Part shown: piece by piece, positions 1 through 63,856 of the stretch
Layout: each line of letters opens with the position of its first letter
How positions within the stretch are numbered: the stretch's first letter is position 1
Assembly: GCA_039621445.1 (NCBI GenBank)
Contig: CP154954.1
Span: forward strand, 26,548,954 to 26,612,953
DNA: 64,000 nt
Direction: 5' to 3'
DNA from: Euglena gracilis
Taxonomy: Eukaryota
Notes under the pieces: generated by a model
Told to the model about the DNA's origin: nothing
Seen by the model: only the letters and a program-made list of their open reading frames with translations
Database searches by the model: none
Position numbers and translations under genes: made by a program

Positions 1-635
1 GGCCGGGGTTTCCGGCTGGCATAGGTAGGGGGTGGGGCCGGGGTTGCCGGCTGGCATAGGTAGGGGGGGGCGGGCCCGGTGTTTCCGGCTGGCATAGGTG
101 GGGGGGGGGGCCGGGGTTGCCGGCTGGCATAGGTAGGGGCAGGGCCTTTTGTTGCCGCTGGCATAATAAGGGGGCCGGCACCCCCACCCTCCAACCCGGG
201 CCCCGCCCCCTACCTTGCCCGCGGCGCCGGAACCCCGAACCACACCCCCTACCTTGCAGCCGGCAACCCCATCCCGCCCCTCTATGCCAGACCAGGGGGG
301 ACCGGTGGGCTTGATTGGCATAGGTAGTGGGGCGGGGACCGGCGGCCTGGCCGGCTGGGCACAGGGGGTGGGGTGTCGGGGTTGACGCTGTCATAGGTAG
401 GGGGCTGGGGCCGGCGGTGCCGGCTGGCAGCAGGTAGGGGGCGGGTGGCCGAGGGTGCCAGGCTGGCATAGGTAGAGGGCGGGGCCGGGGGTGCCGGCTG
501 GCATAGGTAGGGGGCGGGGCCGGGGTGCCGGCTGGCATAGGTAGGGGCGGGGGCCGGGGTGCCGGCTGGCATAGGTAGGGGGCGGGGCCGGGGTGTGCCG
601 GCTGGCATAGGTAGGGGGTGGGGCGGCCGGGGTCA
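1..635. repeat. G-rich minisatellite, unit about 33 bp (GGCCGGGGTGCCGGCTGGCATAGGTAGGGGGCG-like)
   Basis: The core GGCTGGCATAGGTAGG recurs many times, with a short inverted patch at about 180-290. The Pro-rich ORFs here are by-products of the repeat. Confidence 0.85.
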
Positions 636-21198: not shown

Positions 21199-24100
21199 CG
21201 GGTATATGCTTTCTGACACATTTGCGTTTTCAGGCTGGTGGATGTGCTTTTCAGTCCAATGGATGTGCGTTTTCAGGCCGGTGGATGTGCGTTTTTACGC
21301 CGATGAAAATGTGTTTTCGGGGTGGATATGCATTTCAAGTTCTTTGGTGTGATTCTTCAGACTGTTTTTTTGGGGGGGGCGTTGCCAGGTGGATGTCCAT
21401 TTTCAGCCTGGTGGATGTGCATATTGAGTCCAATGGATGTGAATTTTAACTTCCCCTCTTGTCCAACGACCACTACCTCCCCCCCCCCTTGCCCAACGAC
21501 CACTAAATATCGCTACTGACTGGTGGTCGTTATTTTGGCCAAATATCGCTACTGACCGGGGGGTGGTCGTTAGACAAGACCGGGGTCAAAAAATTTTCTC
21601 CCGCGTGCACAAAATGGTCACAAAATGGTCATAAAATGGCCAAAGGTGGTCAAAATGGGGTAAAAAGTGGATAAAAGCGGTCAGAAGTGGCTTAAAATGG
21701 CCACAAATGTGAAAAAAAAAAATAGCCAGAAGCAGCCAAAAATTGGCATAAATGAAGCAAAAATGCATTCATAGCATCCAAAAGTGGCCAAATTTGCCAA
21801 ATGCAGCCCAGAGTGGCCAAAAGTGGCCAAAAGTGGCCCAAAATGGCCAAAACATGGCCAAAAAAAGGCCAAAAGTTGCCAATTTGCAGGAAACCAGGCA
21901 AAAAAAACTTGTTGACCAGGTACAAAATCTGCCATGAAAGCTGTAAGAAAAGGCTGGAGGTAAGAACGCGAACGTGTGGAAAAAAGATCACCTGGAAAAA
22001 GATCGCTACTGACCGGGGGGGTGGTCGTTGGACAAGGCCGGTCGTTGGACAAGGGGGGGGGAGGAGGTAATGTTCATCTCCGACTGGGGTGGAGGGCGGG
22101 CTAAAATAGCCAATGTTCGTCTCCGGGGGGTTGTTCGACAAAGGGGAGATTTTTGCCACTGTTGACCATTTTTGGCCTTTTCACCATCTTGGTTAACTCT
22201 TGGCAAAAAGGAAGGCCAAAAATGGCCAAAATCGCTTAAAAGCAAATAACATAATAAATAAAATTATTATAAGTTATATAAGTTATATAAAATATATATA
22301 CATATATATATGTATATATACATATATATACATATATGTATATAAATATATGTGTGTGTATATATACATATATATATAACAAAATTGCCAAAAAAAACAG
22401 CCAAAAATATTCATATATCCCCATATGGTCAATATTTTTGTTATGTCATTGGCCACTTTTAAGTGTTTTTGGCCACTTTTGACCACTTTTACCAAGAGTT
22501 AACCAAAATGGTCAAAAGGCCAAAAATGACCAACAGTGGCAAAAAAAAAATGGTCAACAGGGGACAAAAACCGACCAAAAATGGCCAAAGGTGACCAAAC
22601 GTGGCCAAAAAAAAAATACCCAAAGGTGGCCAAAAGTGGCCAAAAAAGGTCGGCCGAGTTTTCGCCGACTTCGACGAATTTTCGCCTTTTGCACACCATT
22701 TTGGTAAATTGTAGTCATTTTTTGAGAGGGCCACTGGTCTTCTTCAGCCCGATTGGGCTTTTACAGCCAGTTTGTGGTGGTCAATCCTAGCAAATTGCAA
22801 AAAAAAAAACGTAAAAAAAGCGAAACTAATCGCACAACTCTTCCCATACTCATGGGACCAACATCAGATACAAAAGGACCGCTTCTGACTGGGGGGGGGT
22901 TGTTGGACATGCAAGGTCCCTGGACAAGGAGGGGAGGTGATGACGGTGAATGGGCGTTGCAGGCTGGTGCACTTTGGTGCATGTGCACGCCGTATGTTTT
23001 TAAGTATGGATGTGCGTTTTCAGTCCGGTGGATATGCTTTTTTATGCCGGTGCATGTGCTTTTGCAAACTGTTGCACTTCGATGGATGAAGGTGATCAGT
23101 CTGGTGTATGTGCGTTATCAGGCTGCTGGATGTGCATGTTCGGTGCGGTGGATTTGCATTTGCTGGCATGTGTATTTTAGTGGATGTCCGTTTTCAGGTC
23201 AATGGATGTGCATTTTCAGTCCTGTGGAGGTGCGTCTTCAGTCCAGTGGACGTCCGTTTTCAGGTCGGTGGATACGTTTTCAGACCGCTGGATGTGTATT
23301 TTCAAGTGGCTGTATGTGCATATTCAGGTGTGTGGATGTGGGATTTCAGTCCAGTTGATGTGCGTGAACGCCTACAACACGGTGGACGTGTGTCTTCAGT
23401 CTGGCAGATGTGTGTTTTCAGTCCGGTGGATGTGTGTTTAGTCCGCTAGATGTGCATTTCTACGGGGGTGGATGTGTGATTTCAGTCTGGTTGATGTGCG
23501 TGTGTGTGACTTCAGTCCGGTGGACGTGCGTTTTCAGTCTGGTGGATGTGCGCTTTCAGTCCGCTAGATGAGCTTTTTCAGGTGGGTGGATATGCGGCTT
23601 CAGTCCGGTGGATTTGTGTTTTCAGTCCGGTGGACGTGTGTTTTCAGTCCGGTGGATGTGCATTTTCAGTCCAGTGGATGTATGTTTCCAGGCTGCTGGA
23701 TGTACTTTTGCAAACCAGTGCAGGAGGGTGGACGTGCACTAGCAGCTCGGTGAACGTACGTTTTCAGGTAGACGGATGTGTGTTTTCAGTTCAGTGGATG
23801 TGCCAGTTTTCAGTCCGGTGGATTCGGTCTGGTGGATGTGTGTTCTCAGTCCGGTGGATGTGTGTTTTCAGTCTGGTGGATGTGCATCTTCTGTCCGGTG
23901 GATATGTGTTTTCAGTCTGGTGGATGTGCGTTTTCAGTCCGGTGGATGTGTGTTTTATGTCCGGTGGATGTGTGTTTTCAGTCCGGTGGATGTGCGTTGT
24001 CAGTCTGGTGGATGTGTGTTCTCAGTCTGGTGGATGTGCGTTATCAATCTGGTGGATGTACGTCTTCAATCCGGCGGATGTGTGTTCTCAGTCCGGTGGA

Positions 24101-27100
24101 TATGTGTGTTTTCAGGTAGGAGGATGTGTGTTAATTCCGAGATATGTGCTTTTTCAGCTTGGTGGATACGTATTCTCAGTCCGGTGGATGTGCATATTCA
24201 GCCTGGCGGATGTACGTTTTTAGTCTGGCTGATGTGTGTTTTAAGGTCGGTGGACGTGCGGTTTCAGTCCGGTGGATGTGCGTTTTCGGGTCGGTAGATG
24301 TGCGTTTTCAGTCCGGTGTCTGTGCAGTTTGGCGCTGTGGATGTTCATTTTCAGTCTGGCTGATGTGTGTTTTCAGCCTGGTGGATAAGCAGTTGCAGGT
24401 CCTGCAAACCCACATCTGAGTGATGTGGGTTTTCGGGTGGGCGAAGATGTGGGGGGATCTGTGCTTTCAGTCCGGTAGATGTGCTTTTTTCAGTCCGGTG
24501 GATGTGTGTTTTCAGTTTCATGGATATCCGCTTCCAGTCCGGTGGATGTGCGTCTTCAGTGCGTGTATGTGCTTTTTCAGTCCGGTGGATGTGGGACTTC
24601 AGCACGGTGGACGTATATTTTAAGTCCCGTGGATGTATAGTCTCAGCTTGGTGTATGCATCTTCAATCCAGTGGATGTGCGTTTTCAGTTTGGAAAATGT
24701 GTCTTTTCAGGTGGGAGGATGTGCGTTTTTAGTCCAGTGGATGTGCGTCTTCAGTCCGGTGGATGTGCGATTTCAGGTCGGTGGATGCGAGTTTTCAGGT
24801 AAGTGGATGTCCGTTTTCAGGTCAATGGATGTACATTTTCATTCCTGTGGACGTGCGTCTTTAGTCCGGTGGACGTCCGTTTTCAGGTTCGGTGGATACG
24901 AGTTTTCAGTCCAATGGATGTGTATTTTCAGTCCGTTAGATGTACACTTTCAATCCATTGGATGTGTGTTCAGTTAGGTGGATGTGTGTTTTCAGTTGAG
25001 TGCACGTGTGTTTTCAGTCCGGTGGAGTGTGCTTTCAGCGAGGTGGAAATGTGTTTTCAGTGAGGTGGATATGTGTTTTCAGTCCTGTGAATGTGAGTTA
25101 AAGCGGTGGATGTGCGTTTTCAGTGAGGTGAATGTGTTTTCTCAGTCCGGTGGATGTGCGTTATCAGTCCGGTGGATGTGTGTTTTCAGTCAGGTAGACG
25201 TGCATATTCAGTTCGGTGGATGTACGCTTTCATTATGGTGTCTGTTCATTTTCAGTGCGGTGTATGTGTGTTTTCAGTCCAGATGTGTGTTTTCAGTCCG
25301 GTGGACGAGCATTTTCAGTCAGGTAAATGTGCGTTTTCAGTCGGGTGGATGTGTGTTTTCTGTCCAGTGCACGTGCGTTTCCAGTCCGGTGGTTGTGCAT
25401 TTTCAGTCCGGTGGATTTGCATTTTCAGGTGGGTCGATGTGCGTTTTAGTCCGGTGGACGTGTGGGTGCGTCTTCAGTCCGGTGGACGTGTGGGTGCGTC
25501 TTCAGTCCGGTGGACGTGTGTTCTCAATCCGGTGGATGTACGGTTTCAGTCCGGATGTGTGCTTTCAGTCCGGTGATGAGCATTTTCAGGTAGGCGGATG
25601 TGCGTTTTCAGTCCGGTGGATATGTGTTTTCAGTCCAGTGCACGTGCCTTTCCAGTCTGGTGGATGTGCATTTTCAGTCCGGTGGATTTGCATTCTCAGT
25701 CCGGTGGACGTGTGTGTGCATATGCAGTCCGGTGGACGTGTGCTTTCAATGTGGTGGATGTGAATTTTCAGTCCGATGGACGTGTGTTTTCAGGTGGGTG
25801 AATGTGTGTGTTCAGTCCGGTGGATGTACGTTTTCAGTCTGGTGGATGTGCATTTTCAGTCCAGTGGATGTGCATTTTGAGTCCGGTGGATGTTCGTTTC
25901 TGTCCGGTGGATGTGCATTTTCAGTCTGGTGGATGTGTGTTTTCAGTCCAATGGATGTGCGTTTTCAGGTGGGTGGATTTGCGTTCTGAGTCCGGTTGAC
26001 GTGTGTGTGCGTCTGTTTTCCGGTGGATGTGCGTTTTCAGTCCGATGGGTGTGCATTTTCAGTACGATGGTTGCGTGTTTTCAGTCCGGTGGATATGTAT
26101 TTCTGTCCGGTGGATGTGAGTCTTCAGTCTGGTGAATGTGTGTTTTCAGTCCGGTGGATGTACATTATCAGTCTGGTCTTCAATCCGGTGGGTGTATGTT
26201 TTCAGTGAGGTGGACGTGCGTTTTCAGTCCGGTGGATGTGCATTTACAGTCCGATGAATGTGTGTTTTCAGTCCGGTGGATGTGCTCTTTCAGTCTGGTG
26301 GATGAGCACTTTCAGTCCGGTGGATGTGGGTTTTTGGGCCATTGGATGTGCGTTCTCAGTCCGGTGGATGTGTGTTCAGTGCGGTGGATGTGCTCATTCA
26401 ATTGACAGAATGTGTCTCTTCAGTCCAATGGATGTGCGTTTTCATTGGGGTGAACGTGTGTTTTCAGTCCGGTTGATGTGTGTTTTCAGTGCGGTGGATG
26501 TACATTTTCTGTCAGGTGGACGTGTGTTTTCATTCTGGTGGATGTGTGTATTCGCTCCTCTGGGCGTGCGTCTTTAGTACGGTGGATGTGCCTTTTCAGT
26601 CTGGTGGACACGTGTTATCAGTACACTGGTGTGTGTTCTCAGTCCGGTGGAAAGGTGTGTTTTCAGTCAGGTGGATGTGCATTTTCAGTCTGGTGGATGT
26701 GTGTTTTCAGTCTGCTGGATATGCGTTATCAATCCGGTGAGGTGGGTTTTCAGTCCGGTGGATGTGCAGTATGAGTCCGGTGAACGTGCGTTTTCTGTCC
26801 GGTGGGTGTGCCTTCCAGTCCGGTGGATGTGCGTTTTCAGTCCGGTGGAGGTAAGTTTTCAGTGAGGTGTATGTGCGTTTTCAGTCCAGTCGATGTTCAT
26901 TTTCAGTCCAGTGGATGCGCGCTTTCAGTACGGTGGATGTTTGTTTCCTGTCCGATGGATGTGTGATATCAGTCCACTGAGTATGGGTTTTCAGTCAGGT
27001 GGATGTAAGTTTTCAGTCCGGTGGGCGTACATTTTAAGTCCGGTGGATGTGGGTTTGCAGTGCGGTGGATGTGCCTTTTCAGCAAAATGGGTGGTGCACT

Positions 27101-27893
27101 TTCAGTACGGTGGATGTGTGTTTTCAGTCCAGTGGATGTGCATTTTTAGTCCGGTGGATATGTGTTCAGTCCGGTGATTGTTCGTTTTCAGTCCGGTGGA
27201 TGTGCCTCTTCAGTCCGGTGGATGTGTGTTTTCAGTCCGGTGGATGTACGCTTTCAGTCCGGTGGGCGCACGGTTTAAGTCCGGTGGATGTGGGTTTGCA
27301 GTGCAGTGGATGTGTGTTTTCAATCCGGTGGCTGTGTGTTTTCAATCCGGTGGATGTGCGTTTTTAGTCTGGTGGATATGCGTTATCAGTCCACTGGATG
27401 TGCGTTTTCAGTCCGATGGACGTGCACTTTCAGTCCGGTTCCTGTGTGATTCAGTCTTGTGGATGTGCATTTTCAGTCCAGTGGATGTGCATTTAATTCG
27501 GGAGGATGTGTGTTTTCAGTCCGGTAGATGTACACTTTGAGTCCGATGGATTTTCATTTTTAGTCCTGTGGAGGTTCATTTTCTGTCCGGTGGATGTTCA
27601 TTTTCAGCTTGGTGAACGTTCATTGCAATTCCACTGGATGTGAGTTTTAAGTCCGGTGGATGTTTGTTTTCAGTCCGGTTAATGCGCGCTTTCGGTGAAC
27701 GTGTGCCTTCAATCCGGTGGATGCGCGGTTTCAGTCCGGTGGATGTTCATTTTCAGTCCGGTGGATGTGCACTTTTTGTCCGGTGGATGTGCCCTTTCAG
27801 TCCGGTCAATGTGTGTGTTCAGTCTGGTGGATGTGTGTCTTCAGTCTGGTGGATGTGTGTTCAGTCCGGTGGGTGAACATCTTCAATCCGGTG
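21199..27893 (+). repeat. Segmental duplicate of about 5465-11880
   Basis: The same succession of satellite variants and identical ORF translations (e.g. 8091 vs 24144, 11163 vs 27178), with scattered substitutions and indels. Confidence 0.9.
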
Positions 27894-30800
27894 ACGGGGG
27901 TTGAATGTTGTGAAGCTAATGGCAGGCCAAAATGTCACAAAATATCAATATAAACCCCCCCCCCAAATATAAGAAACCCCTCGCTATAAGAAACCTCCAA
28001 ATATAAGAAACCCTTTGGCTGATTTTCAGCCGACACCCAAATATAAGAAACCCCCAAATATAAGAAACCCCTGGGCTGTTGGACGTCAATCCAAATATAA
28101 GAAACCCCTCATTTTCACCATGGGTCACAGCAAATCTCAAGGCGTGATCAACTCAAAGATGAAGCCAATCTAGTATATTGCTTCTTTGCAAAGCAAGAGT
28201 TCAGAAGCAACTGCTTTTTGGAAACACCTGTCTGTGTCACGACCCCCTTCCCCACTGTTTGAATGGCAGTCAGACATGAGGACAATCCTACACACAGTGG
28301 TCACATGTAATTAATTATATGAAGGAACCGAAGGAAGAAAAAGTTCCATTTATAAGAAACCCTTGGGGCCGGCCTTCGACACCCAAATATAAGAAACCCC
28401 CAAATATAAGAAACCCTTTGGGCCGATCGGCCGACACCCAAATATAAGAAACGGGTTTCTTATATTTGGGGGGGGGGGGGGTTTACATCCCGGCCTGCAC
28501 GGAACATCTTCATCCAATTCAAGTGAAATGTGGGAGCAACCTTTTGTGCATTTTGACCCAAAAAAACACTGCACAAAAGCTTGGGTTGGAATTGCTTGAG
28601 ACGGCCATTTTGTGAGTATGAGGAAAGCAAATTGAAATAATGCAAATTTTTCAAAAAATAGAAACAAAACACAAATCGAGTGCAAAAAAAAAATCCGCAA
28701 CGGACCTCTGAATGTTACTTGGAACAGTCGGATCCATCAAGAGACAATATGAGTATGTACAACCATTTAAAAAAATAAACCTGCAAAAAAATGTGCAAAA
28801 AAAATCAGAAAATGCGCATAAAAAACTGAAAAAAATGCGCAAAAAAATGCGCATTTTCCTAAAAATCAGGAAAATGTGCAAAAAAAAATGCGCAAAAAAG
28901 CGAAAAAATACCGAAACGCATTCCCCCTCCCCTGGCACATGTCACTGGACTGAAAGCGCACATCCATACGGATGTGCGCTTTCAGACTTGTGGATATGTG
29001 TTTTATGTCCGGTGGATGTGTGTTTTCTGCTCGGTGGATGTGTGTTTTCTGTTCGGTGGATGTGTGTTTTCAGTCCGGTGGATGTGCGTTGCCAGTCCGC
29101 TGGATGTGCTTTATCATTCCGGTGGATGTACGTTTTAAGTCCGGTGGATGTGCGTTTTCAGGTCGTTGGATGTGCGTTTTCAGTCCGGGGGGTCTGTGTT
29201 CGTTCCGGTGGATGTGGTTTTCCATTTGAGCGGATGTGTGTTTTCAAATTAGTGGATGTGTTTTTTCGTCCGGTGGATGTGCGTGTTCAGTCCGGTGGAT
29301 GTGTGTTTTCACTCCGCTGGATGAGCATTTTCAGTCCAGTGGGTGTGTGTTTTCAAGTCGGTGGTTGTGCACTTTCAGTCTGGTGGATGTGTGTTTTAAG
29401 TCACTTGGATGTTCATTTTCAGTCCAGTGGATGTGCATCAGTCCGGTGGAGGTGTGCTTTTATTCCGGTGGATGTGTGTTTTCAGTCCGGTGGAAGTGCG
29501 CTTTCAGTCCGGTGGAAGTGCGCTTTCAGTCCGGTGGATGAGTGTTTTCAGTCCGGTGGATGTGTGTTTTCAGTCCGCTGAACGTGCATTTTCAGTCCGG
29601 TGAGAGTGTGTTTTTTCAAATTGGTTGTTGCGCACTTTCAGTCCGGTGGAAGTGTGTTTTCAGCCAGGTGGATGTTTATTTTCAGTCCAGTGGACGTGCA
29701 TCAGTCCGGTGGATGCGCGTTTTCAGTCCGGTGGACATGTGCTTTCAATCCGGTGGATGTGAAGTTTCAATCCGGTGGATTTGCATTTTCATTCCGGTGG
29801 ATGTGCGACTTCAGTCCGGTGGATGTGTGTCTTCGATCTGGTGGATGTGTGTTTTCAGAATTGTGGATATGTGCGTATTCAGTCCGCTGGATGTGCGTTT
29901 TTAGTCCGGTGAGTGTGTGTTTTCAAGTCGGTGGTTGTGCACTTTCAGTCTAGTGGATGTGTGTTTTCAGCCAGGTGGATGTTCATTTTCAGTCCAGTGG
30001 ACGTGCATCAGTCTGGTGGATGTGCGTTTTCAGTCTGGTGGATGAGCTTTTTCAGTTCAGTGGAATGTGTGTTTTCAGGTCGGTGGTATTTGAATTTTAA
30101 GTCCCGTGTATGTGCGTGTTAAGTCAGGTGGATGTGTGTTTTCAGTCCGCTGGTACAATTTCAGTCCCGTGAGTGTGTGTTTTCAAATCGGTTGTTGCGC
30201 ACTTTCAGTCCGGTGGATGTGTGTGGTTTCAGCCAGGGGGATGTTCATTTTCAGTCCAGTGGACGTGCATCAGTCCGGTGGATGAGCGTTTTCAGTCCGG
30301 TGGACATGTGCTTTCAATCCAGTGGATGTGAATTTTCAGTCCGGTGGATGTGTGTCTTCAGTCCGGTGGATGTACGTTTTCAGTTTGGTGGATGTGCGTC
30401 TTCAGTGTGGTGGATGTGCGTTTTCAAACTTGTGGAGATGTGGTTTCAATCCGGTGGATGTGTGTTTTCAGTCAGGTGGATGTGGTTTTCTCAGTCCGGT
30501 GGATGTGTGTTTCAGTCTGGATATGCGTTTTCTGTCCGGTGGATATGTGTTTTCAATCCGGTGGATGTGCGTTCCGAGGTCGGTGGATGTGTGTTTTCAG
30601 TCCGGTGGGTATGTGTTCAGTCCGGTGGATGTGCTTTTTCAGTTCAGTGGATTTGTGTTTTCAGTCCGGTGGATGTGTGTTTTCAGTCCGCTGGATGTGC
30701 ATTTTCAGTCCGGTGGGTGTGCGTTTTCAAGTCGGTGGTTGTGCACTTTCAGTTCGGTTGATGTGTGCTTTCAGTCAGGTGGGATTTCATTTTAAGTCCA

Positions 30801-31392
30801 GTGGATGTGCATGAATCCCGTCAAGCCAGTCCGGTGGATGTGCGTTTTCAGTCCGCTGGGCATGTGCTTTCAATCTGGTGGATGTGCGTCTTCAGTCCGG
30901 TGGATGTGTGTTTCAGTCCACTGACTGTGCGTCTTCAGTCCGGTGACTGTACGTCTTCAGTCTGGTGGATGTAAATTTTCAGACTCGTGGATATGCGTTG
31001 TCAGTCCGGTGGATGTGTGTTTTTAGTTCATGGATGTGCGTTGTCAGTCCCTGGATAACCGGACTGAAAACGCACATCCACCGGACTGAATGCGCACGTC
31101 CACCAGACTGAAACCGCACGTACACCGTACTGAAAACACACATCCACTGGACTGAAGACAGACATCCACCGGACTGAAAATGCACATCCACCAGACATAA
31201 AACGCACATCCACCGGACCCAAAACGCACATCCACCGGACTAAACACACACATCCACTGGTCTGAAGACGCACGTCCACCGGACTGAAAACACACATGCA
31301 CCGGACTGATACACAACACCAGACTGAAGACGCACATCCACTGACCTGAAAACACACATCCACCGGACTGAAAACCCACATCTGAAGGACTG
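27894..31392 (+). repeat. Segmental duplicate of about 18238-21188 (hAT end plus satellite)
   Basis: Starts ACGGGGGTTGAATGTTGTGAAGC as at 18238; identical ORFs (19927 vs 30132). Confidence 0.9.
27953..28483. mobile_element. TA-duplicating MITE (Tc1/mariner-type), 531 bp
   Basis: TIR AACCCCCCCC..AAATATAAGAAACCC. The paralogous empty site at 18290-18300 (CAATA-TA-CATC) shows the TA duplication directly. Confidence 0.92.
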
Positions 31393-33425
31393 AAAGCGCA
31401 CATCCACCGGACTGAACACCTACCTCCACCGGACTGAAAACACAAGTACGAGCGAAGTGAAAACACACATCCACTGGCTTGAAAAATGTATATGCTTCAG
31501 CCTGGAAATGCAGGCTGAAAACGCACATCCACCAGACTGAAAGCACACATCCACCGGACTGAAAACGCATATCCAGACTGAAAAACACATCCACCGTACT
31601 GAAAAACCTCATCCACCGGACAGAAAAAGGCATTTGCACCGGACTGAAAACGCATATCCACAAGTCTGAAAACGCACATCCACCAGACTGAAAACGCACA
31701 GTCACCAGACTGAAAACACACATCCACCAAACTGAAAACACGCATACACCGGACTGATGATGCACATCCACCGGACTGAAAAACGCGAATCCACCGGACT
31801 GAAAACACACATCCACCGGACTGATGCACATCCACTGGACTGAAAATGAACATCCACCTGACTGAAAACACACACATCGACCGGACTGAAAGTGCACAAC
31901 CACCGACTTGAAAACACACACCTACCAGACTGAAAATGCACATCCAGCGGACTCATAACACACATCCACCGGACTGAACACGCACATCCACCAGACTAAA
32001 AACACACATCCACCGACCTGGAAACACACATCAACTCAACTGAAAAAGCACTTCCACCAGACTGAACACAGACGCACCGGACTGAAAACACACATCCACC
32101 GACCTGAAAACGCACATCCACCAGACTGATAACGCACATCCACCGGACTGAAAACACACATCCACCGGACTGAAAGCACACATGGATGCGCGTTTTCAGT
32201 CAGGTGGATGTGTGTTTTCAGCTCGGTGGATGTGCGTTTTCAGTCCGCTGAATGTGCATTTTCAGTCCGGTGGATGTGCGTCTTCTGTCCGGTGGATGTG
32301 CGTATTCAGTCCAATGGGGGCATATTTTCAGTCTGGTGGCAGTTTTGTTTCCAGTCCTAAGGATGTGTGTTTTCAGTAGCGGTGGTTGTGTGTTTTCAGT
32401 CCGGTGGAAGTGGTGGTTTCAGTCCGGTGCAGTGTATCTAATTTGGAGGATGTGTGTTTTCAGTCCGGTGGATATGCGTCTTCAGTCCGATGGACGTGTG
32501 ACTTCAGCCCGGTGGATGTGCTTTTTCAGTTGAGTGGATGTGCGCTTTTAGTCCATGTTTTCAGTCCGGTAGACGTGTGTTTTCAGTCTGGTGCGATGTG
32601 GGTTTTCAGTACGGTGGATGTGTCTCTTCTCTGCGGTGGATGTGTGTTTTCAGTCCGGTGGATGTGCGCACTCAGACTGGTGGATAAACGTTTTCAGTCC
32701 AATGGATGTGCGTTATCGCTTTGGTGGATGTGTGTTTTAAGTATGGTAAATGTGTGTTTTCAGTCCGGTGGTTGTGCGTTGTCAGTCCGGTGGATGTGTG
32801 TTTTCAGTCCGGTGGATGTTCTTTTTCAGTTGAGTGGATGTGTGTTTTCAGTCCGGTGGATGTGTGTTTTCAGTTGAGTGGATGTGTGTTTTCAGTCCGC
32901 TGGAATGTGCGTTTTCAGTCCGGTAGGTGTGTGTTTTCAAATCGGTGGCTATGCACTTTCAGTCTGGTGGATGTGTGTGGTTTCAGCCAGGTGGACGTTC
33001 ATTTTCAGTTCGGTGGACACGCATCAGTCCGGTGGATGTGTGTTTTCAGTCCGGTGGACATGTGCTTTCAATCTGGTGGATGTGCGTTTTCAGTACGGTG
33101 GATTTGTGTTTCCCTTTGGTGGATGTGCGTCATCAGTCCGCTAGATGCGCATTTTCAGTCCGGTGGATGTGCGTTATCAGTCTGGTGGATGTGCGTTTTC
33201 AGGTCGGTGGATATGTGTTTTCAGTCCGGTGGGTGTGTTCAATCCGGTGGATGTGCACTTTCAGTCTGGTGGATGTGCGTTATCAGGTCGGTGGATGTGT
33301 GTTTTCAATCCGGTGGATGTGCATTTTCAGTTTGGTGGACATGTGCTTTCAATCCGTGGATGTGCGTTTTCAGTCCGGTGGATGTGTATTTTCAGTCCGG
33401 TGGATGTGTGTTTCCAGACTGATGG

Positions 33426-34728: not shown

Positions 34729-35568
34729 TATGTGTTTTCAGTCCGGTGGGTGTTTTCAGTTAGGTGGATGTGTGTTTTTAGTCCAGTGGACATGTGATTT
34801 CAATCCGGTGGATATTCATTTTCAATCTGGTAGATGTGCATTGTGTTCAGGATGTGAGTTTTCAGTCCGGAGAATGTGTCTTTTCAGTCGGGTGGATGTG
34901 CGTTTTCAGTCTGGTGGATGTGTGTTTTCAGGTCGCTGAATGTGCATTTTCAGTCCAGTGGAGTGTATTTTTTAAACTTGGAGGATGCACGTTTTCAGTC
35001 CGGTAAACGTACGTTTTCAGTATGGTGAACGTGCGTCTTCAGTCCGATGGATGTACGCTTTCGGTCTGGTGGATGTGGGCTTTCAGTCCGGTAGATGTGC
35101 GCTTTCAGTCCGGTGGATGTGCGTTATCAGTCTGGTGGATGTTCGTTATCAGTCTGGTGGATGTGCATTTCCAGTCCAGTTGATGTGTGTTTCCAGTTTG
35201 GTGGATATGTGTATTTTTTTGGTCTGGTGGATGTGTGTTTACATTCTGGTAGGTGTGTGTTTTCAGTCCGGTGGATGTGTGTTTTGACTCCGGTGGATGT
35301 GTTTTTTGAATGTGCTAGATGTGCATTTTCAGTCCGATGGACGTGCGATTTCAGTCCGGTGGATGCAGTCCGGTGGATGTGTGTTTTCAGTCCGATTCAT
35401 GTGCGTTTTCAGTCCGGTGGACTCTGTCGTGTATTGTCCGGGGACGGGTGTTTTTGGTTTTCTCAGTCAGGTGGATGTGCGCTTTCAGTCCGGTGAGTGT
35501 GTGTTTTCAGGTCATTAAATGTGCGCTATCAGTTCGGTTTCAGGTAGGTGGACTGTGTTTTTCAGTCT

Positions 35569-35610
<42 letters not shown>

Positions 35611-35631
35611 GGGGGGGGGGGGGGGGGGGGT

Positions 35632-35662
<31 letters not shown>

Positions 35663-35682
35663 GGGGGGGGGGGGGGGGGGGG
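35569..35682. repeat. Poly-G tract of about 115 nt inside a satellite unit
   Basis: Read directly; it may be a sequencing or assembly artefact. Confidence 0.8.
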
Positions 35683-38600
35683 GTCCGGTGGATGTGCGTT
35701 TTCAGTCTGGTGGATGTGCGGTTTCAGGTCGGTGGATGTGTGTTTTCAGTCTGGTGGATGTGCAGTTTCAGGTCGGTGGATGTGCGTTCTCAGTCCGGTG
35801 GATGTGCGTTATCAGGTCGGTGGATGTGCTTTTTCAGTTGAGTGGATGTGTGTTTTCAGTCCGCTGGATGTGCATTTTCAGTACGGTGGACGTGCGTGTT
35901 CAGTCCGGTGGATGTGTGTTTCCAGTCAGCTAGATGTGCATTTTCAGTCCGGTGGGTACCCACCGGACTGAAAACACACATACATTGGCCATTGGCTGAT
36001 AACACACAACACAGGACTGAAGACGCACGTCCACCGGACTGAAAACACACATCCACCAGACTGAAAGTGCACAACCACCGACTTGCAAACACGCACCGGA
36101 CTGACAACGCACATCCATCGTACTGAAAAAAACGTCTCCACCGGACTGAAGCACACATCCACCGGACTGAAAATGAACATCCACCGGACTGAAATATACA
36201 TCCATCGGACTGAAAAAGCACATCCACTGGACTGAAAACGCAATCCACCGGACTGAAAACACACATCCACCGGAGAGAAGGCGCACATCCACCGTACTGA
36301 AAACGCACGTCCACCCGACAGAAACAGCACATCCACCTCACTGAAAACACACACCCAGCGAACTAAAAACACATATATCCACCGGACTGAAAATGCACAT
36401 CCACTCAACTGAAAAAGCACATCCAACGGTCTGAAAATGTACATCCACTGGACTGAAAGTGCACATCCACCAGACTGAAAACGCGCACCACCCAACTGAA
36501 AACCTCACATCTGGCCGACTGAAAACATACATCCACCAGACTGAAAGGGGAAAACAACCAAAAAGACTGGTTTTTGTGACAATTTGGTTGATTTTAGGTT
36601 CATCCTTGTGATCAAGGAAGGGAAATTTGAAACCATCATCAAGGCTGGGTTCATTTTCAGTCCAGTGGACGTGCATCAGTCCGTTGGATGTGGGTTTTAA
36701 GTCCGGTGGATCTGTGATTTAAATCTGGTGGACGTCCATTTTCAGTCCGGTGGATTTGTGTTTTCAGTCCGGTGGATGAGCGTCTTCAGTCCAGTGGATG
36801 TGTGTTTTCAGTCCGGTAGATGTGTGTTTTCAGTCCGTGCATTTCCAGGCTGGAGCATATGCATTTTTCTGGCCAGTGGATGCGTGTTTTCAGTCCAGTG
36901 GATGTGCGTCTTCAGTCCGGTGCATGTGTGTTTCCAGTCCGATAGATGTGTGTTTTCAGTCCGGCGGATGTGCGTTATCAGTCCGATGGATGTGTGTTCT
37001 CAGTCCGGTGGATATGTGTTTTCAGTCTGCAGGATGTCCGTTTTCAGTCCGGTGGATGTGCGTTTTCAGTCCGGTGGATGTGCGTTTTCAATCTGGTTGC
37101 TGTGTGTTTGCAGTCCGCGGAATGTGAGTATCAGTCTGGTGGATGTGTCTTTTCAGTCCAGTTGATGTAGGTTTTCAGTACAGTGCATGTGTGTTTTTCA
37201 GTCCGGTGGATATGTTTTTTCAGTCCGGTGGACATGCGTCTTCAGTCCGGTGGATGGGCATCTTCGGTCCGGTGGATGTGCATCTTCAGTCCGGTGGATG
37301 TGCGTCTTCATTCCAGCGGATGTGCGTTTTCAGTCTGCCGGATGTGAATTTTCAGTCCGGTGGATGTGTCTTTTCAGTCCGGTGGATGTGCATTTTAAGT
37401 CCGGTGGATGTGTGTTTTCTGGTGGATGTGCGTCTTCAGTCCGGTGGATGTGCGTCTTCAGTCCGGTGTTGTGTGTTATCAGTCCGGTGGTGCTTTTCAG
37501 TCCGGTGGATGCGCGGATTAAAGACCGGTGGATGTGTGTTTTCAGTCCGGTGGATGTGCATTTTCAGTCCGATGGATGTGCTTTTGCAAACCAGCGCAAT
37601 TCCGTGGATTTGCGCTTCCAGTCGGGTGGACGTGACTTTCCATGGATGTGGGCTTTCAGGCCGGTGGATGTGCGTCTCAAGGCTGGTGCGTGTACTTTTG
37701 CAAAATCGTTGCACTCTCGTGGATGTGTGTTATCAATCTGGTGGATGTGCGTTTCCAGGCTGGTGGATGTGTGCTTTCAGGCTGGTGGATGTGTTTTTTT
37801 CAGACCATTGGAGGTGTATTTTGGGGCTGGTGCAATCCCATGGCAGGTATGTGTGTTTTCAGTCTGGTGGACGTACATTTTCAGTCCAGTGGATGTGCAT
37901 TTTCAGTCCGGCGGCAATGCGCTTTCAGGCGGGTGGATTGGCATATTCAGGCAGGATCAAATAAGGAGGAAACAGCTAAAAAGAGATGGGGGGGGGCGGC
38001 GGACAAATTGCATGAAAAAGACATGCAAACAGCCCTCGATAGGCCCCCCAAATACCTCAAATTCAGCACCAAGCTTTAAGACCTGAAAGGGATCATCCCC
38101 AACACTCCTGCGGATGGGGGGGGGGGGGGGTGCTCGGAACCCATTTCAATGCAACCTGTGTTTTTTTTTGCATTCATGCAGATATAGAAGGATAGTATCC
38201 ACACTGGGGATCCTCCCATTTACTGAAAAGGAAAATTCACTGAAATTCACGAAGGATCACGTAATGCTTTTGCAAAGCCATTGTTGAATGCAGGGGCAGG
38301 GGGTGGCATTTGAATACCTGGAAACCATGGGGTCAGCCAGCAGCCTGTTTCCATCCAGGCTAATTTTTTTCAGCTCTGGCAACCCCCCTCCCAGGGGCCG
38401 CTAAGCGATGCCTGGGGCTGTGCATGATTCCCTTACTCGTCCCATATCACCTGAACCCAGGGGTGAACTAGACCCGGAATTATCAAACTGTAAAAACACC
38501 CACAGCATTGCCAAATTACAAACTATCAATTTTATGATTAAAATTTTGAGCTGGAGAGTCCAGTTAAAAATAAGTCATTTGAGGCGGCTCCGGGACTGAA

Positions 38601-45662: not shown

Positions 45663-45717
<55 letters not shown>

Positions 45718-59147: not shown

Positions 59148-60190
<1,043 letters not shown>

Positions 60191-63100
60191 TTTGGATAAC
60201 AACCATACCCGGTGGCCTCCCCGCACCACCGGGATGGTGCCGGTCCGTCCGGAGCCCCCCTGTCCTGTTTAATAGTAACCGGACGGCAGGGTCGGGGGGC
60301 GCATAACCGGCTGGTGGGTGCCTCCTTCACCACTGCCTCAGGGACGGCAAATCCCTGGGCACACCAAAGGTTCAGCCCAGTGGCCCCGTGTCTTTGGGTC
60401 ACTCCGCCTGGCACTGAAACAGGTTCAGCAGGTTTTCAGGGTGCCTCCCGTCGCGGGCCCTTACTCACCACAAGGCCAGGCAGAGCCCCACACCGCCAGG
60501 TCACAGCATCCCCTTGGCATGCTAACAGCGGTTACTCTAGTCCCAGGCACCCGAGACCTGAAACAGCACAGGGGAGGAGCCTCCCTTCCTTTGCCCTGTC
60601 CATTCCAGGTCCCCTTCCACGCTGAGAGGGACGACGACTCATGTCCCACGAACAGCGCGGGCTTCTACGCGCGAGAGGGCCTGCTCTCCCCGTGGACTCA
60701 CGCGCAGGGGCCCGTGCAGCAAGGCGTCTACACATGCCAGGGGCTGCACGGGGAGGAAACGGAGGGGCCTGCTCAAGCCGTAGGTCCGTTCCTCGAAGTA
60801 TACACCATAAGGTGGCCACACAGACAAGGGGCCGGGCCTTAGGCAATGTATTTGGATAACAACCATACCCGGTGGCCTCCCCGCACCACCGGGATGGTGC
60901 CGGTCCGTCCGGAGCCCCCCTGTCCTGTTTAATAGTAACCGGACGGCAGGGTCGGGGGGCGCATAACCGGCTGGTGGGTGCCTCCTTCACCACTGACTCA
61001 GGGACGGCAAATCCCTGGGCACACCAAAGGTTCAGCCCAGTGGCCCCGTGTCTTTGGGTCACTCCGCCTGGCACTGAAACAGGTTCAGCAGGTTTTCAGG
61101 GTGCCTCCCGTCGCGGGCCCTTACTCACCACAAGGCCAGGCAGAGCCCCACACCGCCAGGTCACAGCATCCCCTTGGCATGCTAACAGCGGTTACTCTAG
61201 TCCCAGGCACCCGAGACCTGAAACAGCACAGGGGAGGAGCCTCCCTTCCTTTGCCCTGTCCATTCCAGGTCCCCTTCCACGCTGAGAGGGACGACGACTC
61301 ATGTCCCACGAACAGCGCGGGCTTCTACGCGCGAGAGGGCCTGCTCTCCCCGTGGACTCACGCGCAGGGGCCCGTGCAGCAAGGCGTCTACACATGCCAG
61401 GGGCTGCACGGGGAGGAAACGGAGGGGCCTGCTCAAGCCGTAGGTCCGTTCCTCGAAGTATACACCATAAGGTGGCCACACAGACAAGGGGCCGGGCCTT
61501 AGGCAATGTATTTGGATAACAACCATACCCGGTGGCCTCCCCGCACCACCGGGATGGTGCCGGTCCGTCCGGAGCCCCCCTGTCCTGTTTAATAGTAACC
61601 GGACGGCAGGGTCGGGGGGCGCATAACCGGCTGGTGGGTGCCTCCTTCACCACTGACTCAGGGACGGCAAATCCCTGGGCACACCAAAGGTTCAGCCCAG
61701 TGGCCCCGTGTCTTTGGGTCACTCCGCCTGGCACTGAAACAGGTTCAGCAGGTTTTCAGGGTGCCTCCCGTCGCGGGCCCTTACTCACCACAAGGCCAGG
61801 CAGAGCCCCACACCGCCAGGTCACAGCATCCCCTTGGCATGCTAACAGCGGTTACTCTAGTCCCAGGCACCCGAGACCTGAAACAGCACAGGGGAGGAGC
61901 CTCCCTTCCTTTGCCCTGTCCATTCCAGGTCCCCTTCCACGCTGAGAGGGACGACGACTCATGTCCCACGAACAGCGCGGGCTTCTACGCGCGAGAGGGC
62001 CTGCTCTCCCCGTGGACTCACGCGCAGGGGCCCGTGCAGCAAGGCGTCTACACATGCCAGGGGCTGCACGGGGAGGAAACGGAGGGGCCTGCTCAAGCCG
62101 TAGGTCCGTTCCTCGAAGTATACACCATAAGGTGGCCACACAGACAAGGGGCCGGGCCTTAGGCAATGTATTTGGATAACAACCATACCCGGTGGCCTCC
62201 CCGCACCACCGGGATGGTGCCGGTCCGTCCGGAGCCCCCCTGTCCTGTTTAATAGTAACCGGACGGCAGGGTCGGGGGGCGCATAACCGGCTGGTGGGTG
62301 CCTCCTTCACCACTGACTCAGGGACGGCAAATCCCTGGGCACACCAAAGGTTCAGCCCAGTGGCCCCGTGTCTTTGGGTCACTCCGCCTGGCACTGAAAC
62401 AGGTTCAGCAGGTTTTCAGGGTGCCTCCCGTCGCGGGCCCTTACTCACCACAAGGCCAGGCAGAGCCCCACACCGCCAGGTCACAGCATCCCCTTGGCAT
62501 GCTAACAGCGGTTACTCTAGTCCCAGGCACCCGAGACCTGAAACAGCACAGGGGAGGAGCCTCCCTTCCTTTGCCCTGTCCATTCCAGGTCCCCTTCCAC
62601 GCTGAGAGGGACGACGACTCATGTCCCACGAACAGCGCGGGCTTCTACGCGCGAGAGGGCCTGCTCTCCCCGTGGACTCACGCGCAGGGGCCCGTGCAGC
62701 AAGGCGTCTACACATGCCAGGGGCTGCACGGGGAGGAAACGGAGGGGCCTGCTCAAGCCGTAGGTCCGTTCCTCGAAGTATACACCATAAGGTGGCCACA
62801 CAGACAAGGGGCCGGGCCTTAGGCAATGTATTTGGATAACAACCATACCCGGTGGCCTCCCCGCACCACCGGGATGGTGCCGGTCCGTCCGGAGCCCCCC
62901 TGTCCTGTTTAATAGTAACCGGACGGCAGGGTCGGGGGGCGCATAACCGGCTGGTGGGTGCCTCCTTCACCACTGACTCAGGGACGGCAAATCCCTGGGC
63001 ACACCAAAGGTTCAGCCCAGTGGCCCCGTGTCTTTGGGTCACTCCGCCTGGCACTGAAACAGGTTCAGCAGGTTTTCAGGGTGCCTCCCGTCGCGGGCCC

Positions 63101-63738
63101 TTACTCACCACAAGGCCAGGCAGAGCCCCACACCGCCAGGTCACAGCATCCCCTTGGCATGCTAACAGCGGTTACTCTAGTCCCAGGCACCCGAGACCTG
63201 AAACAGCACAGGGGAGGAGCCTCCCTTCCTTTGCCCTGTCCATTCCAGGTCCCCTTCCACGCTGAGAGGGACGACGACTCATGTCCCACGAACAGCGCGG
63301 GCTTCTACGCGCGAGAGGGCCTGCTCTCCCCGTGGACTCACGCGCAGGGGCCCGTGCAGCAAGGCGTCTACACATGCCAGGGGCTGCACGGGGAGGAAAC
63401 GGAGGGGCCTGCTCAAGCCGTAGGTCCGTTCCTCGAAGTATACACCATAAGGTGGCCACACAGACAAGGGGCCGGGCCTTAGGCAATGTATTTGGATAAC
63501 AACCATACCCGGTGGCCTCCCCGCACCACCGGGATGGTGCCGGTCCGTCCGGAGCCCCCCTGTCCTGTTTAATAGTAACCGGACGGCAGGGTCGGGGGGC
63601 GCATAACCGGCTGGTGGGTGCCTCCTTCACCACTGACTCAGGGACGGCAAATCCCTGGGCACACCAAAGGTTCAGCCCAGTGGCCCCGTGTCTTTGGGTC
63701 ACTCCGCCTGGCACTGAAACAGGTTCAGCAGGTTTTCA
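60191..63738 (+). repeat. Head-to-tail array of a 660-bp non-coding, highly structured unit (5 full copies + 248 bp); candidate rolling-circle insertion
   Basis: Units start at 60191, 60851, 61511, 62171, 62831 and 63491. The only difference I saw is C vs A at 60336. Flanked on both sides by (TATG)n. The strand is assigned from the G.U bias of the helices. Confidence 0.95.
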
Positions 63739-63856
63739 TATGTATGTATGTATGTATGTGTGTATGTATGTATGTATGTATGTATGTATGTATGTATGTA
63801 TGTATGTATGTATGTATGTATGTATGTATGTATGTATGTATGTATGTATGTATATG
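63739..63856. repeat. (TATG)n microsatellite, right flank of the 660-bp array
   Basis: Read directly from the sequence. Confidence 0.95.

What the first reader, a model, noticed from the sequence alone, without database searches (positions are those of the whole stretch)
60191..63738. 5.4 near-identical turns of a 660-nt non-coding unit inside (TATG)n: a candidate rolling-circle element
Seen: five full copies plus a 248-nt partial copy, with one substitution noticed, in a window where other repeats are heavily decayed. The same microsatellite lies on both sides in the same orientation. The left end is in register with an internal ATGTAT, while the right end breaks mid-unit with no homology. 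There are no TIRs and no credible ORF. Known: non-integer head-to-tail multimers arise from reverse transcription round a circular RNA (retrozymes, Penelope-associated arrays) or from HUH rolling-circle transposition that misses its terminator (IS91, Helitrons). Inference: this is a single recent rolling-circle insertion of a non-autonomous, microsatellite-targeting element. I could not assign it to a known family and found no canonical hammerhead or twister core.
Basis: partly seen in the sequence, partly recalled or inferred. Interest (0 to 1): 0.9.

Follow-up and report, generated by a model that had tools for sequence, protein, structure and literature searches.

The report
Young array of an abundant satellite
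The 3.5-kb block is a real, very young run of 5.4 copies of a 660-base non-coding repeat, but the repeat belongs to a very abundant tandem (satellite) DNA family of this organism rather than being a one-off insertion of a new kind of mobile element.

Summary
Window 60192-63738 contains five 660-nt units plus 247 nt, with one substitution in 3,547 nt, lying inside an (ATGT)n tract.

The unit shows no sign of coding and matches no Rfam family, ribozymes included.

Public runs change the interpretation:
- 20 runs from 15 studies hold the unit.
- One DNA-labelled run (X7) gives 574 variant contigs at 85-100% identity, with summed word depth in the tens to hundreds of thousands.
- Single contigs in two other runs, one from a second organism, wrap head-to-tail round the unit.
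- An environmental RNA library also holds it.

So this is a high-copy tandem family, that is, a satellite DNA. The window's array is a derived sub-variant, about 2.6% from the X7 majority, amplified or homogenised very recently.

The flanks are an almost perfect alternating purine-pyrimidine tract. The left junction carries a 6-nt overlap (ATGTAT).

My best reading (0.55) is microhomology-mediated repair that copied multimeric satellite DNA, either an extrachromosomal rolling circle or a template switch. A fractional copy number is not diagnostic of a rolling circle.

Three X7 contigs share the same left junction next to (TATG)n-like sequence. This keeps a microsatellite-targeting mobile reading alive at about 0.1-0.15.

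Interest is modest.

The parts
60192..60851 (.). Unit 1 of the 660-nt repeat. It is the only unit with C at unit position 145 (window 60336).
   Evidence: exact comparison; sequence
60852..63491 (.). Units 2-5, four identical 660-nt copies.
63492..63738 (.). Partial sixth unit. Its 247 nt are identical to units 2-5, and it breaks mid-unit at ...GGTTTTCA.
60186..60191 (.). ATGTAT, shared by the microsatellite and the end of the unit (unit positions 655-660). This is a 6-nt junction overlap. If 3 of these 6 nt are assigned to the insert, the flanking tetranucleotide repeat is in phase across the insertion.
59772..60191 (.). Left flank, a compound microsatellite (GTGC)n-(GCAT)n-(ATGT)46. 415 of 419 steps alternate purine/pyrimidine, and the longest perfect run is 281 nt (59911-60191).
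63739..63853 (.). Right flank, (TATG)29, same motif and orientation as the left. 114 of 114 steps alternate purine/pyrimidine.

Best explanation
The block is a short, very young cluster of an abundant 660-bp satellite DNA family. It is non-coding and needs no function of its own.

Shown:
- The units are head-to-tail and nearly identical.
- The same unit occurs in many sequence variants and at very high summed depth in a DNA-labelled run of the same organism.
- It wraps head-to-tail in independent runs, including one from a second organism.
- The window's copies all share a derived sub-variant.

Inferred:
- The cluster was placed in a long alternating purine-pyrimidine (Z-DNA-prone, break-prone) microsatellite by DNA repair that used the 6-nt ATGTAT overlap.
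- The repair copied or captured multimeric satellite DNA. The template was either the rolling-circle product of an extrachromosomal satellite circle or another array reached by template switching.
- The other end was joined without homology.
- All units therefore descend from one founder unit. Only one substitution has arisen since.

I put about 0.8 on 'member of a satellite family' and 0.55 on the whole statement including the repair-mediated arrival.
For: Tandem and near-identical.

Family abundance and variation (run X7, labelled 'DNA?'):
- 574 contigs were laid on 684 nt.
- Identity classes were 223 at >=99%, 214 at 95-99%, 121 at 90-95% and 16 below 90%.
- Summed word depth was 8,500-183,000 per bin over the unit. 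The individual variant contigs listed have depth 37-616.

Head-to-tail in independent data:
- X11 (organism B) gives one 690-nt contig (660 + 30) whose two pieces overlap by 30 nt round the unit, with 12 substitutions.
- X1 gives one 658-nt contig that wraps round the unit with 0 differences.
- X7 contigs cross 63491/63492, for example record 13 at 63444-63528.
- X18 (RNA library) has a joint that 'goes back 637'.

Spread: 20 of 24 listed runs, from 15 studies, hold the unit. 17 of them hold at least half of the words.

Derived sub-variant (table 3):
- At about 16 of 660 sites the X7 majority differs from the window.
- At 63151 all X7 depth, X11 and X18 read G where the window reads C.
- X1 matches the window exactly.

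Non-coding with no known RNA family.

Junction anatomy.

Precedent (passages read in PMC7403614): Rsp-like satellite clusters in Drosophila inserted into older repeats. One junction is shared and lies at 4-7 bp of microhomology, the other junction is variable, and the satellite is abundant on eccDNA.

The introduction of PMC7004042 lists rolling-circle amplification of eccDNA among the accepted satDNA mechanisms.

Abstract starts seen only in a search listing (PMC12123511, PMC13079400) state that alternating purine-pyrimidine repeats can adopt Z-DNA and that Z-DNA stimulates double-strand breaks.
Against: - No single-copy control was laid, so summed depth is not a copy number. The tool itself warns of this.
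- The run kinds of X1, X7 and X11 are guesses ('?', 'DNA?').
- X1 shows only one contig, the window's exact variant, at depth 12. That is odd for whole-genome DNA of an organism with thousands of variant copies. It fits either RNA, or a lineage in which the family is low-copy.
- Three X7 contigs share the same left junction next to (TATG)n-like letters (table 7). This is what a site-specific mobile element would also give.
- I saw no eccDNA, no empty site and no second locus in full.
- The right junction could not be examined, because the tool masked 63732-63762.
- I could not name the family. No nucleotide database of eukaryotic repeats was available.
Confidence: 0.55

Rival explanations
1. 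An old insertion kept uniform in place. The satellite cluster has sat at this locus for a long time. Unequal crossing-over or gene conversion within the array has recently fixed one private variant, so the identity reflects homogenisation and not recent arrival.
For: - Concerted evolution is the textbook behaviour of satellite arrays (PMC7004042 introduction).
- The fraction 0.37 of a unit is preserved by unequal exchange.
- X7 contigs show the same left junction, with a slightly different microsatellite (an ACG interruption). They could be the orthologous locus in another individual (table 7).
Against: - Six copies is a very small array in which to sweep about 16 private differences to fixation with only one later substitution.
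- The window's state at 63151 was not seen in X7 at all, although contigs can drop rare variants.
Confidence: 0.2
2. RNA-mediated insertion. A multimeric or circular transcript of the unit, minus-strand sense, was reverse-transcribed by a LINE-type enzyme primed at the (ACAT)n target. This gives a fixed 3' end...CCAAAT(ACAT)n, and a 5' end truncated at a random point in the unit.
For: - On the minus strand the anatomy is a fixed end next to the microsatellite and a mid-unit break with no homology at the other end.
- An 8-bp hairpin (CCCGGTGG/CCACCGGG) lies about 22 nt before the microsatellite tail.
- Three X7 contigs show the same end next to (TATG)n-like letters.
- The unit is present in an RNA library (X18) and in small runs guessed to be RNA.
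- LINEs that target ACAY microsatellites (Waldo) are known (passage in PMC3812793).
Against: - No hammerhead or any other Rfam ribozyme on either strand at E<=10. There is no CTGANGA...GAAA core in the array: 0 of the 33 window matches lie in it.
- No poly(A) and no RT-encoding partner in the window.
- The hairpin region folds no better than shuffles (z -1.03).
- The family's variants do not preserve the fold better than random mutants. For the X7 majority on the minus strand, MFE is -312.5 against -307.9 +/- 6.6, and 20% of 45 mutants fold as well. For X11 the figure is 31%.
- Presence in an RNA library does not show transcription (tool warning).
Confidence: 0.12
3. Helitron/Helentron-type HUH rolling-circle transposition that missed its terminator, or a non-autonomous Helentron (HINE) carrying central tandem repeats beside a microsatellite.
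For: - HINEs in oysters carry a tetranucleotide microsatellite in the left flank followed by satellite-like tandem repeats (passages in PMC7492417).
- MINE-1 helitrons insert at GAAA microsatellites (PMC3812793).
Against: - The array ends are TTTGG.../...TTTTCA. They show neither 5'-TC nor 3'-CTRR with a nearby hairpin, on either strand.
- The microsatellite abuts the first repeat directly and recurs on the right. In HINEs a variable spacer and a conserved 60-bp right flank with a palindrome are expected.
- No inverted match longer than 13 nt was found between the 147-nt right flank and 3.8 kb of left flank.
Confidence: 0.04
4. Assembly artefact: the copy number, or the whole array, was produced by the assembler or by polishing.
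For: Perfect identity of four units is what a collapsed and re-expanded repeat can look like. I could not lay long reads.
Against: - The head-to-tail junction exists in independent public runs (X1, X11, X7 and X18).
- Unit 1 carries its own substitution.
Confidence: 0.05

Closest known systems
Dispersed short clusters of satellite DNA seeded by microhomology or eccDNA (Rsp-like clusters inside 1.688 repeats on the Drosophila simulans/mauritiana X; Sproul et al. 2020, PMC7403614, passages read)
   Same: - A few to tens of near-identical monomers of a satellite lie at a new locus inside a pre-existing repeat tract.
- One junction has a short overlap and the other junction is variable or without homology.
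- The end monomer is truncated.
- There is no coding capacity.
   Different: - The unit is 660 nt and GC-rich.
- The host tract is a tetranucleotide microsatellite and not another satellite.
- Neither eccDNA nor multiple independent junctions have been shown here.
Non-LTR retrozymes and other ribozyme-bearing satellites (Cervera & de la Pena 2020, PMC7229834, abstract start in a search listing only; bioRxiv 10.64898/2026.07.22.740005, passages read)
   Same: - Tandem non-coding units.
- Presence in RNA libraries.
- A proposed rolling-circle/RT route that would give multimers.
   Different: - The defining type I hammerhead in every repeat is absent.
- From recall, animal retrozyme units are about 170-400 nt.
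- No circular RNA has been shown.
Helentron non-autonomous elements with central tandem repeats (Cg_HINE, PMC7492417, passages read)
   Same: A tetranucleotide microsatellite lies next to a short array of satellite-like repeats, and many such arrays are scattered in the genome.
   Different: - No subterminal inverted repeats, 3' palindrome or conserved flanks were found.
- The microsatellite lies on both sides.
- The unit is about four times longer.
Microsatellite-specific non-LTR retrotransposons (Waldo at ACAY repeats; review PMC3812793, passages read)
   Same: The target motif (ACAT)n is a form of ACAY, and an element end abuts the repeat.
   Different: - There is no reverse transcriptase or endonuclease ORF.
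- The structure is tandem multimeric.
- Any link to such a LINE is untested.

Membership tests
Satellite DNA | Head-to-tail tandem arrangement of a monomer | tested here: met
   Six copies are spaced 660 nt apart in the window. Contigs wrap round the unit in X1 and X11 and cross the unit junction in X7.
Satellite DNA | High copy number in the genome with many sequence variants | tested here: met
   In X7, 574 contigs at 85-100% identity were laid, with summed word depth 8,500-183,000. Caveats: no single-copy baseline was laid, and the run kind 'DNA?' is a guess.
Satellite DNA | Long arrays (tens of kb or more) somewhere in the genome | not testable with these tools
   No whole genome is held. 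Contigs of k=31 graphs cannot give array length.
Satellite DNA | Non-coding | tested here: met
   - No Pfam match for the 4 longest frames.
- No protein relatives for the two 187-aa frames.
- ORF lengths and stop counts are as in shuffles.
Non-LTR retrozyme | Type I hammerhead ribozyme in every tandem repeat (definition in bioRxiv 10.64898/2026.07.22.740005) | tested here: not met
   No hammerhead or other ribozyme family was found at E<=1 over 5 kb or at E<=10 over a dimer, on both strands. No CTGANGA...GAAA core lies in the array.
Non-LTR retrozyme | Circular RNA of unit length | not testable with these tools
   Contigs cannot tell a circle from a tandem transcript or from DNA carry-over (tool notes).
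Viroid-like / delta-like circular RNA replicon copy | Rod-like or highly branched stable fold with self-cleaving ribozymes | tested here: not met
   The circular MFE pairs 64-66% of bases, with z -3.4 on the plus strand and -2.7 on the minus strand against 40 shuffles. No ribozyme was found. High DNA abundance argues for a genomic repeat.
Helitron / Helentron (including HINE) | 5'-TC and 3'-CTRR ends with a 3' hairpin; subterminal inverted repeats and a conserved right flank for HINEs | tested here: not met
   The array ends are TTTGG... and ...TTTTCA. No inverted match longer than 13 nt was found between the flanks. Only 147 nt of right flank lie in the window, so the flank test is weak.
Partner of a microsatellite-specific LINE (Waldo-like) | 3' end shared with an autonomous LINE; insertions at a fixed position in (ACAY)n | not testable with these tools
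   There is no LINE in the window and no genome to search. The one hint of a recurrent junction comes from 3 X7 contigs.
Tandem RNA gene cluster (5S, snRNA, SL RNA, tRNA) | Unit contains a known RNA gene | tested here: not met
   No Rfam match at gathering score anywhere in the window, none in the unit at E<=10 beyond chance-level microRNA-like hairpins, and no tRNA.

The most novel reading that the evidence does not exclude
The 660-nt family is not a passive satellite. It is a ribozyme-less, non-autonomous element that spreads as multimers, from a circular or multimeric minus-strand RNA or from a single-stranded DNA circle. It lands specifically in (ACAT)n microsatellites with a fixed ...CCAAAT end, so each landing seeds a new small array. 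This would make it a microsatellite-targeting, array-founding mobile repeat of a kind not yet described. The supporting observations are the recurrent left junction in X7, the single homogeneous wrapped contig in several small runs that may be RNA, and the excess of pair-preserving variants on the minus strand (14 of 17, against 4 of 16 on the plus strand).
Probability: 0.12. Interest if true: 0.75.

Novelty: new member of a known kind. Interest (0 to 1): 0.3.

Why it matters
If the best reading is right, this is a clean, datable snapshot of how a satellite seeds a new cluster. It shows one founder unit, a 6-nt overlap on one side, a blunt mid-unit break on the other, and a Z-DNA-prone microsatellite as the landing site. 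That makes it useful as an example, but it is not surprising.

It would matter more if genome-wide junctions showed that all clusters share the same end next to (ACAT)n. The family would then be a site-specific, multimer-forming mobile element without a known ribozyme or enzyme partner. It would also link satellite birth directly to a transposition mechanism.

Tried and rejected
- Whole-genome search: no genome is held.
- Earlier notes of this scan: nothing for this genome or sequence. A word search gave one unrelated bacterial finding.
- Exact-pattern scans with two 28-nt stretches of the unit gave 0 hits in metagenome contigs, viral contigs and prokaryotic genome contigs. No relatives could therefore be fetched as sequence.
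- Protein routes: Pfam found nothing on 4 unit frames or on the 10 largest other frames of the window. The two homology searches were empty; only proteins of 102-328 aa were candidates.
- Literature for a 660-bp satellite: 0 papers for six phrase forms, 0 for five joint terms and 7 for three terms. Of those 7, I opened only PMC7004042, where 660 bp is just the upper end of Lathyrus monomer sizes. No sequence comparison was possible, so I cannot say the family is undescribed. Supplements are closed and may hold monomer sequences.
- Right junction: the tool masked 63732-63762, so lack of cover there says nothing.
They are no evidence of habitat.
- Structure conservation:
  - The 14/17 (minus strand) against 4/16 (plus strand) pair-keeping asymmetry looked striking; 0 of 5000 site permutations reached it.
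  - It is biased, because the fold was derived from the window variant and the minus strand is richer in G+U.
  - The reference-free MFE test was not significant on either strand (45 random mutants per set).
  - I count this as inconclusive.
- The tRNA-like A/B-box resemblance around 63673-63733 was rejected. There is no ARAGORN or Rfam support, and half the family varies in the 'A box'.
- An LTR-like reading (TG...CA) was rejected, because the block is a non-integer multimer.
Full report
1. THE OBSERVATION

TRF and a seeded repeat search place six copies of a repeat at exact 660-nt spacing between 60186 and 63785.

A base-by-base comparison gives:
- Five full units start at 60192, 60852, 61512, 62172 and 62832.
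- Units 2-5 are identical.
- Unit 1 differs only at unit position 145 (C instead of A).
- A sixth copy matches for 247 nt, to 63738, and then becomes (TATG)n.

The flanks are (ATGT)46.5 at 60006-60191 and (TATG)28.8 at 63739-63853, the same motif in the same orientation.

The unit ends in ATGTAT, so the left junction carries a 6-nt overlap. The right junction...GGTTTTCA|TATG, has none.

No other copy of the unit lies in the window.

2. WHAT THE UNIT IS NOT

It does not look coding:
- The longest stop-to-stop frames are 187 aa on each strand.
- 27% of 2000 dinucleotide shuffles reach that length.
- The stop count is 33 against 34.7 +/- 4.2 in shuffles.
- Pfam finds nothing in the four longest frames.
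- Two searches of the large protein collection with the 187-aa frames return nothing at E<=0.001 (only proteins of 102-328 aa were candidates).

It matches no described RNA family:
- Rfam gives nothing inside the unit at E<=1 over 5 kb.
- Over a dimer at E<=10 it gives only chance-level hairpin matches.
- There is nothing at gathering score in the whole window, and no tRNA.
- The hammerhead core pattern has 33 matches in the window. All lie in the 22-nt satellite between 5.6 and 37.4 kb, and none lies in the array.

As a circle, the unit folds only moderately better than shuffles. The plus strand gives -283.5 kcal/mol (z -3.4) and the minus strand -311.8 (z -2.7), from 40 shuffles each, with 64-66% of bases paired and no rod shape.

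3. WHAT PUBLIC READS SAY

The unit is held by 20 of the 24 listed runs, from 15 studies. Most are from coded organism A, one is from organism B, and three are environmental RNA libraries, two of them with only small shares.

I laid one rotated turn of the unit plus 24 nt of the right flank (63079-63762) on four runs.

X7, labelled 'DNA?', with 1.65 Gb of contigs:
- 574 contigs were laid.
- 223 were at >=99%, 214 at 95-99%, 121 at 90-95% and 16 below 90% identity.
- Summed word depth was 8,500-183,000 per bin over the unit.
- The individual variant contigs listed have depth 37-616.

X11, organism B:
- It gives one 690-nt contig. That is 660 + 30, the length of a closed path in a k=31 graph.
- Its two pieces overlap by 30 nt round the unit.
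- It carries 12 substitutions.

X1:
- It gives one 658-nt contig that wraps round the unit with no difference from the window.
- The contig is broken only at 63666, a site that varies in the other runs.

X18, a leaf-litter metatranscriptome:
- It gives 16 contigs, mostly at 95-99% identity.
- One joint goes back 637 nt across the unit boundary.

X7 contigs also cross the unit boundary; record 13 spans 63444-63528.

So the unit is a high-copy, sequence-variable, head-to-tail family present in at least two labelled organisms, that is, a satellite DNA.

Caveats:
- No single-copy control was laid, so depth is not a copy number.
- The run kinds are partly guesses.
- Presence in an RNA library does not prove transcription.

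4. THE WINDOW'S ARRAY IS A YOUNG, DERIVED SUB-VARIANT

At about 16 of 660 sites the majority of X7 depth differs from the window (table 3). At 63151, all X7 depth, X11 and X18 read G where the window reads C. At 63538, 99.6% of X7 depth reads C.

All 5.4 local units share these private states and differ from each other at one site. At that site no run shows a variant, so unit 1's C is a later private change.

Three of the window's derived changes are CpG>CpA and three are CpG>TpG (read). Together with CpG o/e 0.61, this is ordinary strand-symmetric decay.

The eight large organism-A runs guessed to be DNA (X7-X10, X12-X15) hold only 0.58-0.63 of the unit's words. X1-X4 hold 0.81-0.94. This fits a variant private to some lineages. 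Contigs can drop rare variants, so absence is not proven.

5. THE LANDING SITE

From 59772 to 60191 and from 63739 to 63853 the sequence alternates purine and pyrimidine almost perfectly. The counts are 415 of 419 and 114 of 114 steps, with perfect runs of 281 and 121 nt.

Such tracts can adopt Z-DNA, and Z-DNA stimulates double-strand breaks. I saw this only in the abstract starts of PMC12123511 and PMC13079400 in a search listing.

If 3 of the 6 overlap bases are given to the insert, the tetranucleotide repeat is in phase across the insertion.

A 420-nt MITE-like element with perfect 17-nt terminal inverted repeats sits in the neighbouring (GTGC)n tract. These microsatellites have therefore taken insertions more than once.

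6. MECHANISM

A fractional number of units is a property of any segment of a periodic array and is preserved by unequal exchange. It therefore does not by itself indicate a rolling circle.

The anatomy is one junction with a 6-nt overlap and one without homology, truncated end units, and a pre-existing repeat tract as host. This matches what Sproul et al. described for Rsp-like clusters inserted into 1.688 repeats in Drosophila. They found shared microhomology junctions of 4-7 bp, variable second junctions, and the satellite abundant on eccDNA (PMC7403614, passages).

Rolling-circle amplification of eccDNA is a standard proposal for satellite dynamics (PMC7004042, introduction).

I therefore favour break repair in the microsatellite that copied multimeric satellite DNA (0.55). 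The main rival within the same class is in-situ homogenisation of an older cluster (0.2).

7. THE MOBILE-ELEMENT READINGS

Retrozyme:
- Membership fails on its defining feature, a type I hammerhead in every repeat (definition in bioRxiv 10.64898/2026.07.22.740005; tests).

Helitron/Helentron:
- Membership fails on the end motifs and the flank structure.
- Oyster HINEs do combine a microsatellite with tandem repeats (PMC7492417).

LINE-mediated route:
- This reading cannot be excluded.
- Read on the minus strand, the block has a fixed end, ...CCAAAT(ACAT)n, with a hairpin about 22 nt upstream and a randomly truncated 5' end.
- LINEs specific for ACAY microsatellites exist (PMC3812793).
- In X7 the best-supported true junction among the seven loose ends shown is microsatellite-like sequence directly before the unit's ATGTAT, in 3 contigs. 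A further 29 loose ends were not shown (table 7).

Against the LINE-mediated route:
- The hairpin region is no more stable than shuffles (z -1.03).
- The family's variants do not preserve the fold better than random mutants of the same types.

An apparent excess of pair-preserving variants on the minus strand was 14 of 17 against 4 of 16 on the plus strand. It is confounded by deriving the fold from the window variant and by the minus strand's higher G+U content. I leave it as unexplained and weak.

8. VERDICT

The array is a real and recent multimer in a microsatellite. It is a new cluster of an abundant satellite family, not a lone insertion of an unknown element, and the rolling-circle claim is undecided.

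I could not name the family. No eukaryotic repeat library or nucleotide database was available, and text searches for a 660-bp satellite found nothing relevant. It may already be described for this organism.

Novelty: new member of a known kind. Interest: 0.3.

The boldest reading that survives is a ribozyme-less, microsatellite-targeting, array-founding mobile repeat. I give it about 0.12.

Noticed in passing
window 59352-59771: A 420-nt MITE-like element with perfect 17-nt terminal inverted repeats (CAGGCATTTGCTTAAGG). It is inserted inside the (TGCG)n/(GTGC)n microsatellite and is rich in C/G homopolymer runs and AAAAATGGCCAAAAA-type palindromes. It shows that the neighbouring microsatellites have taken other insertions.
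   Followed up: partly
window 7327-13839, 13978-15266, 18766-21302, 23179-27893, 28970-33417, 34734-37832: Very large, decayed arrays (62-77% matches) of a 22-nt satellite (consensus TTCAGTCCGGTGGATGTGCGTT) in both orientations. They fill about half of the window.
   Followed up: no
window 7258-11754 vs 23311-27857; 18295-21190 vs 28484-31395: Segmental duplication of satellite-bearing blocks within the window, at 94.3% identity over 4.6 kb and 99.0% over 2.9 kb.
   Followed up: partly
window 35569-35683 and 45663-45713: A 115-nt G homopolymer (94% matches) and a perfect 51-nt A homopolymer. The G run is unusually long.
   Followed up: no
window 1-624: A G-rich 34-35-nt minisatellite (about GGCCGGGGTTGCCGGCTGGCATAGGTAGGGGGGGG) at the window's start.
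   Followed up: no
window 60192-63738 (unit, minus strand): Of the family's variant sites that lie in predicted pairs, 14 of 17 keep a standard pair on the minus strand against 4 of 16 on the plus strand. A reference-free energy test was not significant. This is unexplained and probably bias.
   Followed up: yes
public runs X1-X4: Small runs (25-33 Mb of contigs, kind unknown) hold the window's exact variant as a single homogeneous wrapped contig at depth about 12. The large DNA-labelled runs show hundreds of variants and did not show the window's variant at 63151. The cause could be expression of one sub-family or a lineage difference in abundance; this is not resolved.
   Followed up: partly
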